Shown here: positions 1 to 5,044 of the stretch, in pieces
Layout of the letters: the number at the start of each line of letters is the position of its first letter
How positions within the stretch are numbered: position 1 is the stretch's first letter
Source: Escherichia coli
GTDB lineage: Bacteria > Pseudomonadota > Gammaproteobacteria > Enterobacterales > Enterobacteriaceae
Assembly: GCF_003334315.1 (NCBI RefSeq)
Contig: NZ_QOWR01000098.1
Length of the DNA stretch: 5,044 nucleotides
Reading direction: 5' to 3' (one strand)
Notes under the pieces: model-generated
What the model saw: the letters and a program-made list of their open reading frames with translations, nothing else
Told to the model about the DNA's origin: nothing
The model's database searches: none
Program-made: the position numbers and the translations under genes

Positions 1-650
<650 letters not shown>

Positions 651-694
651 TTACTCACAAATTGCCGGAAGTGATCCGGTATGAATATTGCGAG

Positions 695-1120
695 TCAATG
701 CACAGCCACAATATTTCCTGCAGGGCCACCACGATTCATCTGGTTGAAACCAGCGATCGCCACTGCGACAAAATCATCAGCGTCTCTCACCAGTCGTTCC
801 CGCGTCTCCACTAGTTCCCGAAAATAGGCTGAGCTATGGCTGCGCATTCGGGCCACCAGCAGAGGTGGCATTGCTTTTTCGATAGCTGGTAACAACGCCT
901 GAATTTTTTCAACTGCATCAGGGGTGTCTTTCTCTACCCAGCGGAAAATTTTCTGGGTATTGCGAGCCAGGGCTTCCGGATGGCTGTCGTCATACAGTTC
1001 TGGGAACGTCATACCCAGTTCAAAATAAGCCCTGGTTATTTCAGCTGCCGGAACTTTTTCACCGTCCGGATGCGCCCAGGCATTCATCGCCATGCGGATG
1101 TGTTCATGCTTGATTTTCAT
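695..1120 (-). CDS. ydaT: YdaT-like protein (CII-type regulator of Rac-like prophages)
   Basis: 141-aa minus-strand ORF beginning MKIKHEHI, with ATG at 1120-1118 preceded by AGGAG at 8-nt spacing. It overlaps the 3' end of the upstream ydaS-like gene by 17 bp, the arrangement expected for the ydaS-ydaT pair. Identity rests on remembered sequence similarity and synteny. Confidence 0.7.
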   Translation of the reverse strand: MKIKHEHIRMAMNAWAHPDGEKVPAAEITRAYFELGMTFPELYDDSHPEALARNTQKIFRWVEKDTPDAVEKIQALLPAIEKAMPPLLVARMRSHSSAYFRELVETRERLVRDADDFVAVAIAGFNQMNRGGPAGNIVAVH

Positions 1121-1385
1121 GAATCAAGCTCCTAGAAAGTGGTTGTGTTAACATTTTGGTATCTTCCAGCTCGGGCCAAATATTCATCCAATCAAAAGGC
1201 CTTAGTTGCTGACGTGTAACTTCACCATTACTGGCTCGCTCAATAAGGACACATAACGATGCCCCTAACACTTGACCTTTACTCAATGCCTTTCTTAGAT
1301 AACCGATGCTGGTACCACACTCGCATGCAAACATACGCTGTTCATCTGACGAAAGAGAATTGAGAAATATTCTTAATTCTTCCAT
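1104..1385 (-). CDS. ydaS: Cro/CI-type HTH DNA-binding protein, YdaS-like
   Basis: 93-aa minus-strand ORF with ATG at 1385-1383 preceded by TAAGGAGTAGCT (AGGAG about 7 nt upstream). It is divergent from the repressor gene across a 100-bp operator region and is followed by overlapping ydaT. The length differs from my recollection of K-12 YdaS (about 98 aa), so this may be an allelic variant. Confidence 0.6.
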   Translation of the reverse strand: MEELRIFLNSLSSDEQRMFACECGTSIGYLRKALSKGQVLGASLCVLIERASNGEVTRQQLRPFDWMNIWPELEDTKMLTQPLSRSLIHENQA

Positions 1386-1415
1386 AGCTACTCCTTAGTA
1401 AACACAGCAAAGAAC

Positions 1416-1490
1416 ACCCATAGGTAAACAAAAGTCAATACCCACAGGTTGTTTACCTTGCAGTAATCGCATCTATTATTTACCTATGGA
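1416..1490. promoter_or_regulatory. Divergent control region between ydaS and racR with three operator-like sites sharing the core AGGTAAA / CCATAGGTAAA
   Basis: Site A is ccataggtaaacaa at 1418-1432. Site B is its reverse complement ttgtttacct at 1449-1458. Site C is tttacctatgg at 1479-1489 (reverse complement ccataggtaaa), overlapping the racR ATG. On the minus strand a -35-like TTGACT (plus 1433-1438) faces ydaS, and a TATTAT -10-like hexamer at 1474-1479 faces racR. Confidence 0.55.
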
Positions 1491-1905
1491 CAAATATGAA
1501 TTTAGACGACAGCAACTCATCAAAATTCGTGATGAGAAATGCGATGGTAAAGCGGTTAACGTGGCCAGAAAGATCGGGCGCGAGCCTTCTTATGTATCAA
1601 GAATGTTGTACCCAGAGGGGAAAAAGGGAAAAAAACGGATCGCTGATGATATGGTGGAGATTATCGAAGAGTCCTTTGGGTTACCCCGGGGATGGATGGA
1701 TGGTATCGTTTCATCATCAACGAACACAGCCTCCAGTTATGAAACAAGGGTTCTAACGCCACGACAACGTATTTTTTTAGATCTCTTAGACGAACTGCCA
1801 GAAAGTGAAGCGGATAACTTATTAAAAACTCTTGAAGAGAAAAAACAGTATTACAATATGATCTACGAAGAAATCCGTAAAAAGAAAGCACAAAACGCAT
1901 CATAG
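1486..1905 (+). CDS. racR: Prophage repressor, RacR-like HTH protein
   Basis: 139-aa ORF divergent from ydaS, in the position of the immunity repressor. There is no in-frame upstream start (in-frame TAA at 1399-1401) and no Shine-Dalgarno before ATG 1486. Operator-like sites flank the gene on both sides. The length differs from my recollection of K-12 RacR (158 aa), so I call it RacR-like. Confidence 0.6.
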   Translation: MDKYEFRRQQLIKIRDEKCDGKAVNVARKIGREPSYVSRMLYPEGKKGKKRIADDMVEIIEESFGLPRGWMDGIVSSSTNTASSYETRVLTPRQRIFLDLLDELPESEADNLLKTLEEKKQYYNMIYEEIRKKKAQNAS

Positions 1906-1950
1906 CTCACCAAACAACTAGTCACCAGTTAAGACACCGCAAAAAGTTAC

Positions 1951-1981
1951 CCATGGGTATTTACTTTTTAAATACCTATGG
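1951..1981. promoter_or_regulatory. Imperfect palindrome ccatgggtattta / taaatacctatgg downstream of racR; operator-like and related to the sites upstream of racR
   Basis: Half-sites at 1951-1963 and 1969-1981 are inverted copies (12 of 13 match) and share CCATrGGTA with sites A and C. The overlapping hexamers TTTACT (1960-1965) and TATCCT (1983-1988) could form a rightward promoter towards ydaG/ydaF. Confidence 0.45.
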
Positions 1982-2159
1982 GTATCCTTCTTTTCATACC
2001 AACCCACCCCGCCCCACAGAATGCAGGGCAATACTTCGAGTTACCAGGCAGTGGTCAGGGGTTAAGTAGCCAGCCCGAGGCGTAAGAACATGACGGCGGG
2101 ATTCAAATTTTGCAGTGCAGCAGTTAGTTCCGCCACCCGGCGTTAAGGGGAGAGATAAG

Positions 2160-2294
2160 ATGGTGCATTACGAAGTAGTTCAGTATTTGATGGATTGTTG
2201 CGGTATCACTTACAACCAGGCTGTGCAGGCTTTACGCAGCAACGACTGGGATCTCTGGCAGGCAGAAGTCGCTATACGTAGCAACAAGATGTGA
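2160..2294 (+). CDS. ydaG: Small Rac-prophage protein, YdaG-like (44 aa), function unknown
   Basis: ATG at 2160 is preceded by AAGGGGAGAG. The translation is MVHYEVVQYLMDCCGITYNQAVQALRSNDWDLWQAEVAIRSNKM with TGA at 2292-2294. It is absent from the ORF track because of its size. Length and position match my recollection of ydaG between racR and ydaF. Confidence 0.55.
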   Translation: MVHYEVVQYLMDCCGITYNQAVQALRSNDWDLWQAEVAIRSNKM

Positions 2295-2304
2295 GATTCG
2301 CAAA

Positions 2305-2460
2305 ATGCAAAAAATCGACCTCGGCAACAACGAATCCCTGGTGTGCGGCGTGTTCCCCAACCAGGATGGAACGTTCACTGCCATGACGTATACCAAAAGC
2401 AAAACATTTAAAACCGAAACTGGTGCGCGCCGATGGTTGGAGAAGCACACAGTAAGCTAA
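2305..2460 (+). CDS. ydaF: Small Rac-prophage protein, YdaF-like (51 aa), function unknown
   Basis: ATG at 2305 with a weak Shine-Dalgarno. The translation is MQKIDLGNNESLVCGVFPNQDGTFTAMTYTKSKTFKTETGARRWLEKHTVS with TAA at 2458-2460. Its 3' end overlaps the convergent sieB stop by 4 bp. Confidence 0.55.
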   Translation: MQKIDLGNNESLVCGVFPNQDGTFTAMTYTKSKTFKTETGARRWLEKHTVS

Positions 2461-2945
2461 CGATTAAAACGTCTACTCCTGCTGTTCCAGAATAACTTCA
2501 TAAAATGGGAGTATTTTTCGGTGACGAGATAATAAGAACAGTTTGCGCTATCACTCTGATGTTGAATGATGCCCTTCCGTTCTAATTTTTTCATAACCGG
2601 GTTACGGCAAGGAGAAGTGATAATAAGATTTCCTGTTTTAAGGAAATCTTTAAATACAGCGATTTCTTTCTCAGATAAACGAAGCAATACTCGTTGCTCT
2701 GGTAGTAATGAATAATGCTTTTGAATATGTGCTCGCAATCTTGAGAAGGAAATGGCGACCACGAAAGAAAAGGCAAAAACGATAATCTGAAAGAGCCAAG
2801 GCATTTCAGTATAAGCATTGAATGCGACAGTAAACTCTTTCGGTATCAGCCAGAGAGTGAGACCAAAAATGATAATCGTATACATAAGTCTTTCGAGTGG
2901 CTCGTTAGCAAAAAGTTTCAACAATGGAGTAAATACATCCAACAT
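2457..2945 (-). CDS. sieB: Superinfection exclusion protein SieB (162 aa, membrane protein)
   Basis: This is the C-terminal 162 codons of track ORF 2457..3371, starting at ATG 2945-2943 (MLDVFTPLLKLFANEPLERLMYTIIIFGLTLWLIPKEF...), with GAGAG about 8 nt upstream. The hydrophobic N-terminal half is consistent with a membrane protein. The upstream 142 codons of the track ORF are antisense to recE and are rejected. Confidence 0.8.
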   Translation of the reverse strand: MLDVFTPLLKLFANEPLERLMYTIIIFGLTLWLIPKEFTVAFNAYTEMPWLFQIIVFAFSFVVAISFSRLRAHIQKHYSLLPEQRVLLRLSEKEIAVFKDFLKTGNLIITSPCRNPVMKKLERKGIIQHQSDSANCSYYLVTEKYSHFMKLFWNSRSRRFNR

Positions 2946-3093
2946 ATCAATAACTCTCAACTGTAAGGGTATTGAAATGTTAACACAAGCTCTCGCTGTA
3001 GGGGTATAGCCGAGACCACCGAAGCCCGGAGGTGGTGAAATAAAACCGGGCACAACACGAAGGCGCATTTCCGATATCCATAAAGAGTCGGTC

Positions 3094-4188
3094 TTGTCTG
3101 TTAAATTTAAATGGTGGAGTGCGCCTCCGGTTGTAAATAACGACATTGCTGTGTGTAGTCCTGGCGGCATCAGTTTTTTTCTTGAAGTTCGGCTGATGTC
3201 CGCCCTTTTTAAAGTGAATTTTGTGATGCGGTGGGTTGAAGCTAAGGAAAATGATCCGGAGGAAATGGAAGGCGCTGAACATCCGCACAATGAGAATGCT
3301 GGCAGCGATCCGCATCGCGATTGCAGTGATGAAACTGGCGAAGTCGCAGATCCCGTAATCGTAGAAGACATAGAGCCAGGTATTTATTACGGAATTTCGA
3401 ATGAGAATTACCACGCGGGTCCCGGTATCAGTAAGTCTCAGCTCGATGACATTGCTGATACTCCGGCACTATATTTGTGGCGTAAAAATGCCCCCGTGGA
3501 CACCACAAAGACAAAAACGCTCGATTTAGGAACTGCTTTCCACTGCCGGGTACTTGAACCGGAAGAATTCAGTAACCGCTTTATCGTAGCACCTGAATTT
3601 AACCGCCGTACAAACGCCGGAAAAGAAGAAGAGAAAGCGTTTCTGATGGAATGCGCAAGCACAGGAAAAACGGTTATCACTGCGGAAGAAGGCCGGAAAA
3701 TTGAACTCATGTATCAAAGCGTTATGGCTTTGCCGCTGGGGCAATGGCTTGTTGAAAGCGCCGGACACGCTGAATCATCAATTTACTGGGAAGATCCTGA
3801 AACAGGAATTTTGTGTCGGTGCCGTCCGGACAAAATTATCCCTGAATTTCACTGGATCATGGACGTGAAAACTACGGCGGATATTCAACGATTCAAAACC
3901 GCTTATTACGACTACCGCTATCACGTTCAGGATGCATTCTACAGTGACGGTTATGAAGCACAGTTTGGAGTGCAGCCAACTTTCGTTTTTCTGGTTGCCA
4001 GCACAACTATTGAATGCGGACGTTATCCGGTTGAAATTTTCATGATGGGCGAAGAAGCAAAACTGGCAGGTCAACAGGAATATCACCGCAATCTGCGAAC
4101 CCTGTCTGACTGCCTGAATACCGATGAATGGCCAGCTATTAAGACATTATCACTGCCCCGCTGGGCTAAGGAATATGCAAATGACTAA
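3094..4188 (+). CDS. recE: Exodeoxyribonuclease VIII (RecE), N-terminally truncated: only the C-terminal exonuclease-domain portion is present
   Basis: The translation contains [35 protein letters not shown] ... [10 protein letters not shown], which I recognise as the C-terminal region of Rac RecE. The stop at 4186-4188 overlaps the recT start, as in the native recET operon. The reading frame is open from 3010. The track start at 3094 is TTG; the first in-frame ATGs are at 3196 and 3226 and neither has a good Shine-Dalgarno, so the true start, if any, is uncertain. Confidence 0.8.
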
Positions 4189-4867
4189 GCAACCACCAAT
4201 CGCAAAAGCCGATCTGCAAAAAACCCAGGGAAACCGTGCACCAGCAGCAGTTAAAAATAGCGACGTGATTAGTTTTATTAACCAGCCATCAATGAAAGAG
4301 CAACTGGCAGCAGCTCTTCCACGCCATATGACGGCTGAACGTATGATCCGTATCGCCACCACAGAAATTCGTAAAGTTCCGGCGTTAGGAAACTGTGACA
4401 CTATGAGTTTTGTCAGTGCGATCGTACAGTGTTCACAGCTCGGACTTGAGCCAGGTAGCGCCCTCGGTCATGCATATTTACTGCCTTTTGGTAATAAAAA
4501 CGAAAAGAGCGGTAAAAAGAACGTTCAGCTAATCATTGGCTATCGCGGCATGATTGATCTGGCTCGCCGTTCTGGTCAAATCGCCAGCCTGTCAGCCCGT
4601 GTTGTCCGTGAAGGTGACGAGTTTAGCTTCGAATTTGGCCTTGATGAAAAGTTAATACACCGCCCGGGAGAAAACGAAGATGCCCCGGTTACCCACGTCT
4701 ATGCTGTCGCAAGACTGAAAGACGGAGGTACTCAGTTTGAAGTTATGACGCGCAAACAGATTGAGCTGGTGCGCAGCCTGAGTAAAGCTGGTAATAACGG
4801 GCCGTGGGTAACTCACTGGGAAGAAATGGCAAAGAAAACGGGTGATGATGCCAACTTACTGATTTAG
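4181..4867 (+). pseudogene. recT: recT (RecT single-strand annealing recombinase) interrupted by IS1 after codon 220
   Basis: ATG at 4181 is preceded by AAGGAA. The translation [35 protein letters not shown] ... THWEEMAKKT matches RecT as I remember it. From 4841 the frame runs into the IS1 terminal sequence, adding GDDANLLI before a stop at 4865-4867. The track ORF start at 4124 is a spurious upstream extension. Confidence 0.85.
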
Positions 4868-5044
4868 TGTATGATGGTGTTTTTGAGGTGCTCCAGTGGC
4901 TTCTGTTTCTATCAGCTGTCCCTCCTGTTCAGCTACTGACGGGGTGGTGCGTAACGGCAAAAGCACCGCCGGACATCAGCGCTATCTCTGCTCTCACTGC
5001 CGTAAAACATGGCAACTGCAGTTCACTTACACCGCTTCTCAACC
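4841..5044 (+). mobile_element. IS1 insertion sequence, left end (IRL plus the first ~200 bp); continues past the window edge
   Basis: ggtgatgatgccaacttactgatttagtgtatgatggtgtttttgaggtgctccagtggcttctgtttctatcagctgtccc... matches the IS1 left terminal inverted repeat and the insA leader as I remember them, with one mismatch in the IR (GAT where I recall GCT). The exact junction is ambiguous by about 1 bp. Confidence 0.9.
4896..5044 (+). CDS. insA: IS1 InsA (transposition regulator / N-terminal transposase part), 5' partial
   Basis: GTG at 4896 is preceded by GAGGTG. The translation is [49 protein letters not shown], the InsA zinc-finger-like N-terminus. It is truncated by the window end. Confidence 0.85.

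What the first reader, a model, noticed from the sequence alone, without database searches (positions are those of the whole stretch)
2160..2945. Convergent 4-bp overlap of ydaF and sieB stops, and a possible internal Esc-like start within sieB
ydaF ends at 2460 and the convergent sieB ends at 2457, so the two genes share stop-codon bases and have no room for terminators; transcription from either side must read into the other gene, giving a built-in antisense relationship. In lambda and P22, sieB contains an in-frame internal start that produces Esc, an inhibitor of the exclusion function. This sieB has an in-frame ATG at codon 21 (MYTIIIFGL...) that could serve similarly. The functions of the two tiny upstream proteins (ydaG-like 44 aa, ydaF-like 51 aa) are unknown.
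Basis: partly seen in the sequence, partly recalled or inferred. Interest (0 to 1): 0.4.

Follow-up and report, generated by a model that had tools for sequence, protein, structure and literature searches.

The report
Rac prophage sieB exclusion module
This is the well-known ydaG-ydaF / sieB corner of the E. coli Rac prophage; by homology it carries the same gene-within-a-gene (Esc-like) start and antisense-RNA region as phage P22's sieB system, so it is a further member of a known kind and not a new mechanism.

Summary
ydaF (2305-2460, +) and sieB (2457-2945, -) overlap by 4 nt, their stop codons share 2 nt, and sieB has an in-frame ATG at codon 21 (2885-2883). Window 1995-3233 is 99.4% identical to K-12 Rac, where the same genes and overlap are annotated.

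sieB lies tail-to-tail against the first early-left gene (N-like protein or YdaF) in about 40 distinct lambdoid contexts. The exact overlap is not conserved: the gap runs from -40 to +94 nt, mostly -4 to +28.

All 62 distinct SieB-family proteins examined have a Met at the Rac Met21 column or two residues later, where the annotated P22 Esc start (codon 25) aligns. The Rac internal ATG has only a weak Shine-Dalgarno match, as does the annotated P22 Esc start.

The antisense element known in P22 (sas) sits at the 5' end of sieB, not at the stop overlap. Window 2941-3062 (+) is homologous to it, with twin CTGTA(A/G)GGGT boxes and two interleaved covarying helices that match no Rfam family.

No expression data could be obtained. 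Use of codon 21 and an antisense switch in Rac remain inferences. Verdict: new member of a known kind, modest interest.

The parts
1948..1984 (.). Operator-like palindromes TACCCATGGGTA (1948-1959) and TACCTATGGGTA (1973-1984). They bracket a weak early-left (pL-like) promoter candidate: TTTACT 1960-1965, 17 nt, TATCCT 1983-1988, + strand.
   Evidence: Related half-sites recur between the divergent repressor-like and cro-like genes at about 1410-1490. The promoter is inferred and falls below the scan threshold. Homology to K-12 Rac starts at 1995.
2160..2294 (+). ydaG: 44-aa protein, first gene of the early-left operon. Function unknown, with a weak UBA-like match.
   Evidence: identical to K-12 YdaG. 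Pfam UBA_4, E = 4.5e-5. phrog_14709, unknown function.
2305..2460 (+). ydaF: 51-aa DUF1391 protein. It sits where lambda has N and P22 has gene 24.
   Evidence: Pfam DUF1391, E = 2.1e-28. phrog_751, unknown function. Position relative to sieB.
2457..2460 (.). 4-nt convergent overlap of ydaF (stop TAA 2458-2460) and sieB (stop TAG 2459-2457).
2457..2945 (-). sieB: 162-aa superinfection exclusion B family protein.
   Evidence: Pfam SieB PF14163, E = 4.6e-31, with the match starting at residue 21. phrog_6399 SieB, 2.4e-69. 26% identity to lambda SieB, E = 2e-13. AlphaFold model, pLDDT 84: long helices at 15-33 and 51-78 that I read as transmembrane, plus a helix/beta-hairpin C-terminal domain.
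2457..2885 (-). Candidate Esc-like ORF: in-frame ATG at codon 21 (2885-2883) through the sieB stop; 142 aa, equal to the Pfam-defined core.
   Evidence: Weak Shine-Dalgarno match (-2.2 kcal/mol, 42nd percentile within the gene). The ATG lies in a predicted unpaired AU-rich stretch of the mRNA, but the fold is not better than shuffles.
2946..3008 (-). Predicted sieB promoter and 5' UTR, assigned by homology to the mapped P22 promoter: extended -10-like TGtTAACAT (2985-2977), predicted transcript start near 2970, 5' UTR of about 25 nt.
   Evidence: P22 promoter and RNA start are annotated in BK000583. Conservation of the region across loci. The consensus scan did not pick it up, so the assignment is by homology only.
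2961..3005 (.). Twin conserved boxes: CTGTAAGGGT (2961-2970) and CTGTAGGGGT (2996-3005) on the + strand, which read (T)ACCC(C/T)TACAG on the sieB strand.
   Evidence: Nearly invariant across loci whose SieB proteins share only 24-35% identity. Also found in front of non-SieB cargo genes.
2941..3062 (+). Region homologous to the P22 antisense RNA sas. It is complementary to the sieB start codon, Shine-Dalgarno region, 5' UTR and promoter, and continues into a structured region.
   Evidence: The P22 sas sequence in Table 2 of PMC13397905 aligns with the Rac, lambda and other loci.
3015..3051 (+). Two interleaved helices with H-type pseudoknot topology: A, ACCACC 3015-3020 with GGTGGT 3031-3036; B, GCCCGG 3024-3029 with CCGGGC 3046-3051. 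The loop between A's 3' arm and B's 3' arm is A-rich.
   Evidence: Covariation in 26 distinct sequences: 7 of 15 pairs change on both sides, and G-U pairs form only on the + strand (hand-fitted alignment). Helix B was recovered independently by RNAalifold on a MAFFT alignment. No Rfam family matches.
3116..3210 (+). KilS small RNA, which is also the sub-threshold DicF-like Rfam hit at 3150-3205.
   Evidence: 95 of 98 nt identical to K-12 kilS b4833. Rfam DicF, 39.1 bits against a gathering score of 48, E = 4.3e-6. Northern-verified in PMC8175672.

Best explanation
The region is the start of the early-left operon of a Rac-type lambdoid prophage, with the sieB exclusion gene inserted in the opposite direction.

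Shown by sequence and homology:
- ydaG and ydaF are the first two early-left genes.
- sieB sits tail-to-tail against ydaF, as it sits against N in lambda and gene 24 in P22, and by homology has its own promoter.
- Any early-left transcript that continues must be antisense to all of sieB, its ribosome-binding site and its promoter.
- sieB keeps the family-wide Met at the edge of the first long helix (read here as transmembrane); the annotated P22 Esc start aligns two residues downstream of it.
- The DNA upstream of sieB is homologous to the P22 sas antisense RNA, including twin conserved boxes and two covarying interleaved helices on the early-left strand.

Inferred mechanism:
- While the prophage repressor keeps the early-left promoter off, sieB mRNA is translated from codon 1 to give SieB, an abortive-infection membrane protein. 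Some translation probably starts at codon 21 as well.
- When early-left transcription is on, from an induced or incoming related phage, antisense RNA pairs over the SieB start region. This blocks SieB synthesis but leaves the codon-21 start, 60 nt downstream, free.
- The N-terminally truncated Esc-like protein then neutralises SieB.

The 4-nt stop overlap is a by-product of tight packing and not the control point.
For: - Gene identities and overlap.
- Conserved tail-to-tail placement next to N-like or YdaF genes in about 40 distinct contexts.
- P22 annotation of sieB 29758-30336, esc 29830-30336, and the sieB promoter and RNA start.
- Lambda Esc is listed as encoded in frame within sieB: PMC3224144.
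- A Met at the Rac Met21 column or at +2 occurs in 62 of 62 distinct SieB proteins, with the either/or/both pattern expected of a start codon.
- The 20 residues before it are conserved as protein (F12, N14, E15, P16, E18, R19 invariant), so codon 1 is also used.
- Several lineages carry a stronger Shine-Dalgarno match before the internal Met than before codon 1.
- The Pfam SieB core begins exactly at residue 21.
- The sas sequence of P22 (PMC13397905) aligns to window 2941-3062.
- Helix covariation, with G-U pairs allowed only on the + strand.
- The P22 SieB/Esc/sas mechanism as described in PMC12197685, PMC10002423 and PMC12888859.
Against: - There is no direct evidence of transcription or translation for the Rac copy. 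The retapamulin start-site paper does not mention sieB in its text and its tables are not held.
- The Rac internal ATG has a weak Shine-Dalgarno match (-2.2 kcal/mol, 42nd percentile).
- No + strand promoter-like site was found that could make a discrete sas-like RNA.
- NusG-dependent (Rho cofactor) silencing of kilR in K-12 Rac (PMC5793797) suggests early-left transcripts may often stop before or within antisense sieB.
- Rac is a defective prophage, so an Esc function may no longer be under selection.
- The helix alignment was fitted by hand, and 3 cassette copies do not fit it.
- The original Ranade and Poteete papers could not be read.
Confidence: 0.6

Rival explanations
1. Incidental packing with no regulation. 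The overlap and the antisense arrangement are by-products of genome compaction in a decaying prophage. Rho stops early-left transcripts in the untranslated antisense stretch, Met21 is just a membrane-proximal residue, and only full-length SieB is made.
For: - The exact overlap is not conserved: the gap runs from -40 to +94 nt.
- The Shine-Dalgarno match at codon 21 is weak.
- NusG-dependent silencing of downstream kilR is known in K-12 Rac.
- The sieB 5' mRNA fold is no better than shuffles.
Against: - A Met at one of two adjacent columns in 62 of 62 proteins sharing as little as 24% identity, with a shift to +2 in the P22 lineage, is hard to explain as a structural residue.
- The non-coding DNA upstream of sieB is more conserved than the protein and carries covarying helices on the antisense strand.
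- P22 shows that the arrangement is functional.
Confidence: 0.25
2. Convergent transcription acts by polymerase collision or promoter occlusion (transcriptional interference) and not through base-pairing of an antisense RNA. Early-left transcription would simply shut off the sieB promoter, and sieB transcription would dampen ydaG-ydaF.
For: - There is no terminator between the convergent genes.
- The early-left strand runs straight across the predicted sieB promoter at 2977-3008.
Against: - Interference alone does not explain covarying RNA helices whose G-U pairs form on one strand only.
- It does not explain the discrete sas RNA seen in P22.
- It does not explain the conserved internal Met. 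The two mechanisms are not mutually exclusive.
Confidence: 0.1
3. Codon 21 is the only real start, and the annotated 20-residue N-terminal extension is an annotation artefact.
For: - The Pfam SieB model begins at residue 21.
- Some database entries start there (P0024, P0028).
- Truncated variants exist (L143, L152).
Against: - Residues 1-20 are conserved at the protein level across distant homologues: F12, N14, E15, P16, E18 and R19 are invariant in A3 (alignment).
- P22 annotates both products.
- The conserved promoter and 5' UTR sit directly in front of codon 1.
Confidence: 0.05

Closest known systems
Phage P22 sieB / esc / sas system (Ranade and Poteete 1993; annotated in BK000583)
   Same: - Same protein family.
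- Same placement antisense to the early-left operon, directly after its first gene.
- In-frame Met at the edge of the first predicted membrane helix (P22 codon 25 against Rac codon 21, 2 columns apart).
- Homologous promoter, 5' UTR and upstream region, including the twin boxes and both helices that lie inside the P22 sas RNA.
   Different: - Only 18% protein identity.
- The convergent partner is YdaF (DUF1391) and not an arginine-rich antiterminator.
- 4-nt overlap instead of a 20-nt gap.
- Rac-type helices are ACCACC/GGTGGT and GCCCGG/CCGGGC, against AACCAC/GTGGTT and GCCTG/CAGGC in P22.
- Nothing has been shown experimentally for Rac.
Phage lambda sieB (git), convergent with N
   Same: - 26% identity, with FSNEPLERTMY matching Rac FANEPLERLMY.
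- The sieB stop abuts the N stop with a 0-nt gap.
- The upstream region is the same as in P22.
- Esc is listed as encoded in frame.
   Different: Lambda has a strong GGAGAG Shine-Dalgarno sequence before its internal Mets (-6.4 kcal/mol), whereas Rac has GAAAGA (-2.2).
E. coli K-12 Rac prophage annotation (sieB b1353, ydaF b4527, ydaG b1355, kilS b4833)
   Same: Window 1995-3233 is 99.4% identical. It has the same genes, the same 4-nt overlap and the same KilS RNA.
   Different: - The window has a different immunity region to the left of 1995.
- It has a 2.64-kb deletion after 3233 that removes kilR, ydaE, racC and the first approximately 560 codons of recE.
- recT is cut by IS1.
- K-12 annotates no esc-like product.
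Qin prophage dicB operon (ydfA, ydfB, ydfC, dicF, dicB)
   Same: Small DUF1391-type and YdaG/YdfB-type proteins open the early-left operon, and a DicF-like small RNA precedes the cell-division inhibitor gene. Annotations of related phages are and the DicF-like hit. The Qin gene order is from my own knowledge.
   Different: As far as I recall, Qin has no sieB gene at this position. This was not checked here.
Lambda holin S105 / antiholin S107 (dual-start gene)
   Same: Works alike: two products from one reading frame that differ only at the N terminus, one antagonising the other (listed in PMC3224144).
   Different: The protein is unrelated, the two starts are 2 codons apart, and the choice is set by an mRNA stem-loop and not by an antisense RNA (own knowledge).

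Membership tests
SieB superinfection exclusion protein family (Pfam PF14163, phrog_6399) | Significant match to the family profile | tested here: met
   Pfam SieB, E = 4.6e-31, residues 21-160. phrog_6399, E = 2.4e-69. BLASTP to lambda SieB, E = 2e-13.
SieB superinfection exclusion protein family (Pfam PF14163, phrog_6399) | Located antisense within the early-left operon of a lambdoid (pro)phage, next to its first gene | tested here: met
SieB superinfection exclusion protein family (Pfam PF14163, phrog_6399) | Abortive exclusion of superinfecting phages | not testable with these tools
   This needs plaque or one-step growth assays. PADLOC has no model matching SieB.
sieB/esc dual-product gene (P22 type) | In-frame initiation codon at the start of the first predicted membrane helix, aligned with the P22 Esc start | tested here: met
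   Rac Met21 aligns 2 columns from P22 Met25 and in the same column as lambda Met25. 62 of 62 family members have a Met at one of the two columns.
sieB/esc dual-product gene (P22 type) | Ribosome-binding signal in front of the internal start | tested here: inconclusive
   Rac scores -2.2 kcal/mol (42nd percentile of positions in the gene). The annotated P22 Esc start scores +0.6 (84th percentile). Lambda and four other lineages score -5.6 to -6.4. A Shine-Dalgarno match is therefore not a reliable criterion in this family.
sieB/esc dual-product gene (P22 type) | A second, shorter protein is actually made and inhibits SieB | not testable with these tools
   No ribosome-profiling table or proteomic data for sieB could be reached.
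sas antisense RNA (P22) | Sequence homologous to sas on the strand opposite sieB, covering the SieB start region | tested here: met
   The P22 sas sequence (PMC13397905) aligns with window 2941-3062.
sas antisense RNA (P22) | Conserved secondary structure on the antisense strand | tested here: met
   Two helices with compensatory changes: 7 of 15 pairs change on both sides, 0 of 500 shuffles reach the covariation score, and slid controls collapse. The alignment is hand-fitted. Helix B was also found by RNAalifold.
sas antisense RNA (P22) | A discrete small transcript is produced | not testable with these tools
   No promoter-like site on the + strand within 2860-2945. The RNA could instead be processed from the early-left transcript. 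A Northern blot or RACE is needed.
DicF RNA (Rfam RF00039) | Score at or above the Rfam gathering threshold | tested here: not met
   39.1 bits against 48. The locus is the separately named KilS RNA of K-12.

The most novel reading that the evidence does not exclude
The roughly 110-nt block upstream of sieB consists of twin CUGUAGGGGU boxes plus two interleaved covarying helices with H-type pseudoknot geometry: 3-nt loop 1, 1-nt junction, A-rich 9-nt loop 3. It may be a conserved, portable RNA module of lambdoid early-left transcripts. It would accompany whatever 'moron' gene sits at this position (SieB, phrog_1244 or phrog_3983 proteins) and define the 3' part of a sas-type antisense RNA, for example as a processing or stabilising end structure or a termination signal. 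It is absent from Rfam, and I could not establish whether the structure has been described before.
Probability: 0.4. Interest if true: 0.55.

Novelty: new member of a known kind. Interest (0 to 1): 0.3.

Why it matters
If the Rac copy works like P22's, then E. coli K-12 and more than a thousand other sequenced E. coli strains would carry a ready-made model of an abortive-infection gene with three features. It makes its own inhibitor from an internal start codon. It is switched by an antisense RNA. And it sits in a genetically tractable, non-inducible prophage.

This would allow the long-unresolved mechanism of SieB to be studied in K-12. [quoted passage not shown]

The strongly conserved non-coding block upstream of sieB also offers a concrete, testable RNA structure for a regulator that is still missing from RNA family databases.

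The stop-codon overlap that drew attention is ordinary.

Tried and rejected
- Reading the original Ranade and Poteete papers: not held. Details of P22 come from the BK000583 annotation and later papers.
- Looking for sieB in retapamulin start-site profiling: no mention in the text and no supplement held. Two other papers I tried were not held.
- tblastn of Rac SieB against phage genomes found only Rac-like phages. The word-indexed and exhaustive protein searches gave few distant homologues.
- The alignment-seeded locus search returned only near-identical Rac copies. Diversity came instead from exact-protein look-ups and a DNA pattern built on the twin boxes.
- A promoter-like hit inside sieB on the - strand (2896-2869) was rejected. 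It would start transcripts downstream of codon 21, and the scan found fewer sites than in shuffles (2 against 4.0).
- Composition of the + strand across antisense sieB shows no obvious C-rich, G-poor Rho-loading stretch, so this is uninformative.
- Folding of the sieB 5' mRNA and of the helix region alone gave no significant z-scores (0.35 and -1.5). Nested folding cannot represent interleaved helices.
- MAFFT alignments misplace helix A by one column, so a hand-fitted alignment was used and is flagged as such.
- PADLOC gave no hit for SieB, YdaF or YdaG.
- The fold search of the SieB model gave only weak winged-helix (MarR/CodY-like) matches, with none at E <= 0.001. I do not rely on it.

Full report
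**What is in the window**

The window is a Rac-type lambdoid prophage of E. coli or a close relative.
- Positions 1995-3233 are 99.4% identical to K-12 Rac, and 3234-3474 are 100% identical to an internal part of K-12 recE.
- More than 1,200 complete E. coli genomes carry the 1900-3300 segment almost intact.
- From left to right: replication and ydaT/cro-like genes on the - strand; a 139-aa repressor-like gene (1486-1905, +; phrog_5736); operator-like palindromes at 1948-1984; ydaG (2160-2294, +); ydaF (2305-2460, +); sieB (2945-2457, -); the KilS small RNA (3116-3210, +); a truncated recE; and recT interrupted by IS1.

**Checking the observation**

- The ydaF stop TAA is at 2458-2460, and the sieB stop TAG occupies 2459-2457 on the - strand. 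The ORFs overlap by 4 nt and the stop codons share 2 nt.
- NCBI annotation of strain H7 and of K-12 shows the same arrangement.
- sieB has an in-frame ATG at codon 21 (2885-2883).
- A simple scan finds no intrinsic-terminator-like hairpin between or near the two genes.

**Is the overlap itself meaningful?**

I collected SieB loci in two ways: by exact-protein look-ups of distant homologues, and by scanning viral contigs for a DNA pattern that lies upstream of sieB.
- In about 40 distinct contexts, the nearest convergent ORF ends -40 to +94 nt from the sieB stop, mostly -4 to +28.
- The partner is an arginine-rich N-like antiterminator (lambda N, gap 0; P22 gene 24, gap 20) or YdaF (Rac types: -4, -11, +1).
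- Close tail-to-tail placement of sieB against the first early-left gene is therefore a conserved design. The 4-nt overlap is only one lineage's version of it.

It follows that early-left transcription, if it continues, must be antisense to sieB.

Rho-dependent termination remains possible. NusG, the Rho cofactor, is known to keep the downstream kilR low in K-12 Rac (PMC5793797).

**The internal start**

- P22 is annotated with sieB at 29758-30336 and esc at 29830-30336, so Esc begins at codon 25. Lambda Esc is likewise listed as encoded in frame within sieB (PMC3224144).
- In protein alignments, Rac Met21 aligns with lambda Met25, and P22 Met25 aligns with lambda Met27.
- Among 62 distinct SieB-family proteins, some sharing only about a quarter of their residues, every one has a Met at the Rac column, at the P22 column two residues later, or at both. 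Other internal Mets are not conserved. This either/or/both pattern is what a conserved start codon would produce and is unusual for a structural residue.
- The 20 residues before it (F-x-N-E-P-L-E-R) are also conserved as protein. Codon 1 is therefore used too, which argues against a simple misannotation.
- The Pfam SieB model starts exactly at residue 21.

The Shine-Dalgarno evidence is mixed:

| Lineage | Anti-SD pairing before the internal Met | Within-gene percentile |
|---|---|---|
| Lambda and four other lineages | -5.6 to -6.4 kcal/mol, stronger than before codon 1 | 2nd-11th |
| Rac | -2.2 kcal/mol | 42nd |
| P22 (annotated Esc start) | +0.6 kcal/mol | 84th |

A weak match therefore does not exclude use of the site, but it gives no positive support for Rac.

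I could find no ribosome-profiling or proteomic data for sieB.

**Where the antisense control sits**

- A 2026 paper gives the sequence of the P22 sas RNA as seen by RNA-seq (PMC13397905). It is the reverse complement of the sieB start codon, Shine-Dalgarno region, 5' UTR, promoter and about 60 nt further upstream. It does not reach the Esc start.
- The same block is conserved upstream of every SieB homologue I retrieved that had enough upstream sequence, except L089, and it is better conserved than the protein.
- In the window it is 2941-3062 on the + strand. It contains two copies of CTGTA(A/G)GGGT (2961-2970 and 2996-3005). On the sieB strand there is an extended -10-like TGtTAACAT in the position of the mapped P22 sieB promoter.
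- Next come two interleaved helices: A, 3015-3020 with 3031-3036; and B, 3024-3029 with 3046-3051.

In 26 distinct sequences, selected with a pattern that does not include the helices, both helices show compensatory changes:
- A-U to U-A, C-G to G-C, and U-A to C-G or G-C.
- 7 of 15 pairs change on both sides.
- 0 of 500 shuffles reach the covariation score, and sliding the partners collapses the signal.
- All four G-U variants pair only on the + strand, so the structure belongs to the early-left/sas RNA and not to sieB mRNA.

Caveats:
- The alignment was fitted by hand, because MAFFT shifts helix A by one column.
- Non-pairing flanks were masked.
- Three cassette copies do not fit (L159, L164, L139).
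- RNAalifold on an ordinary MAFFT alignment recovers helix B on its own.
- The order and loop lengths fit an H-type pseudoknot, but two alternative hairpins are not excluded.
- Rfam has no family matching this block, either in the window or in P22.

**Most likely mechanism**

By homology, Rac carries a complete sieB/esc/sas-type module.
- With the repressor on, sieB mRNA gives SieB.
- When early-left transcription runs, antisense RNA over the SieB start region blocks SieB while codon 21 stays available. The shorter protein would antagonise SieB, as described for P22.

The architecture, the homology, the conserved Met and the conserved antisense-strand structure are shown. Actual use of codon 21, the existence and origin of a Rac antisense RNA, and any exclusion phenotype are inferred.

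**Other proteins**

- YdaF is DUF1391.
- YdaG gives only a weak UBA-like match.
- The SieB model (pLDDT 84) has a poorly defined N-terminal 20 residues, two long helices at 15-33 and 51-78 that I read as transmembrane, and a C-terminal helix/beta-hairpin domain with only weak winged-helix matches.

**Verdict**

The finding is a correct description of a known, annotated gene arrangement. Its most interesting element, the Esc-like start, is well supported by comparative evidence but unproven for Rac. The regulatory antisense element lies at the other end of sieB from the overlap.

This is a new member of a known kind, with modest interest. The conserved structured block upstream of sieB is the part most worth following up.

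Noticed in passing
window 3116-3210 (+): A DicF-like Rfam hit below threshold (3150-3205; 39.1 bits against 48) turns out to be the KilS small RNA annotated in K-12 (b4833). It is 95 of 98 nt identical and lies in the kilR 5' UTR, although kilR itself is deleted in this window.
   Followed up: yes
window 3233/3234: A 2.64-kb deletion relative to K-12 removes kilR, ydaE, racC and about the first 560 codons of recE. It leaves an ATG at 3226 fused in frame to the RecE C-terminal exonuclease domain (residues 561-877 of the NCBIfam model). This resembles the laboratory deletions that activate recE (own knowledge). The junction is present in none of 5,426 complete E. coli genomes.
   Followed up: partly
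window about 4849-5044: recT is interrupted near its 3' end by an IS1 terminal sequence. Only 2 complete E. coli genomes cover at least 80% of the query spanning this recT/IS1 region.
   Followed up: partly
window 1-1995: The immunity region is not the K-12 one. It has a 139-aa repressor-like protein (phrog_5736), a cro-like gene and TACCCATGGGTA-type operators. Homology to K-12 Rac begins at 1995, just after the early-left promoter candidate, which is a typical mosaic boundary.
   Followed up: partly
loci L104, L136, L137, L157, L163, L167 and others (viral contigs): The same twin-box and helix cassette that precedes sieB also precedes unrelated genes of 164-189 aa (phrog_1244, phrog_3983; unknown function, no meaningful PADLOC match). 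The cassette behaves as a portable expression module for different cargo at this position.
   Followed up: partly
window 2802-2804 (-): SieB differs from K-12 by I48M, which creates an extra in-frame ATG at codon 48 between the two predicted membrane helices.
   Followed up: no
loci L143 and L152: Some Rac-type sieB copies have the first approximately 15 codons replaced (LLMSHIERLMY...). This leaves little more than the Esc-like part of the gene.
   Followed up: no
window 2160-2294 (+): YdaG gives a weak match to UBA-like domains (Pfam UBA_4, E = 4.5e-5). This is unusual for a 44-aa phage early protein.
   Followed up: no
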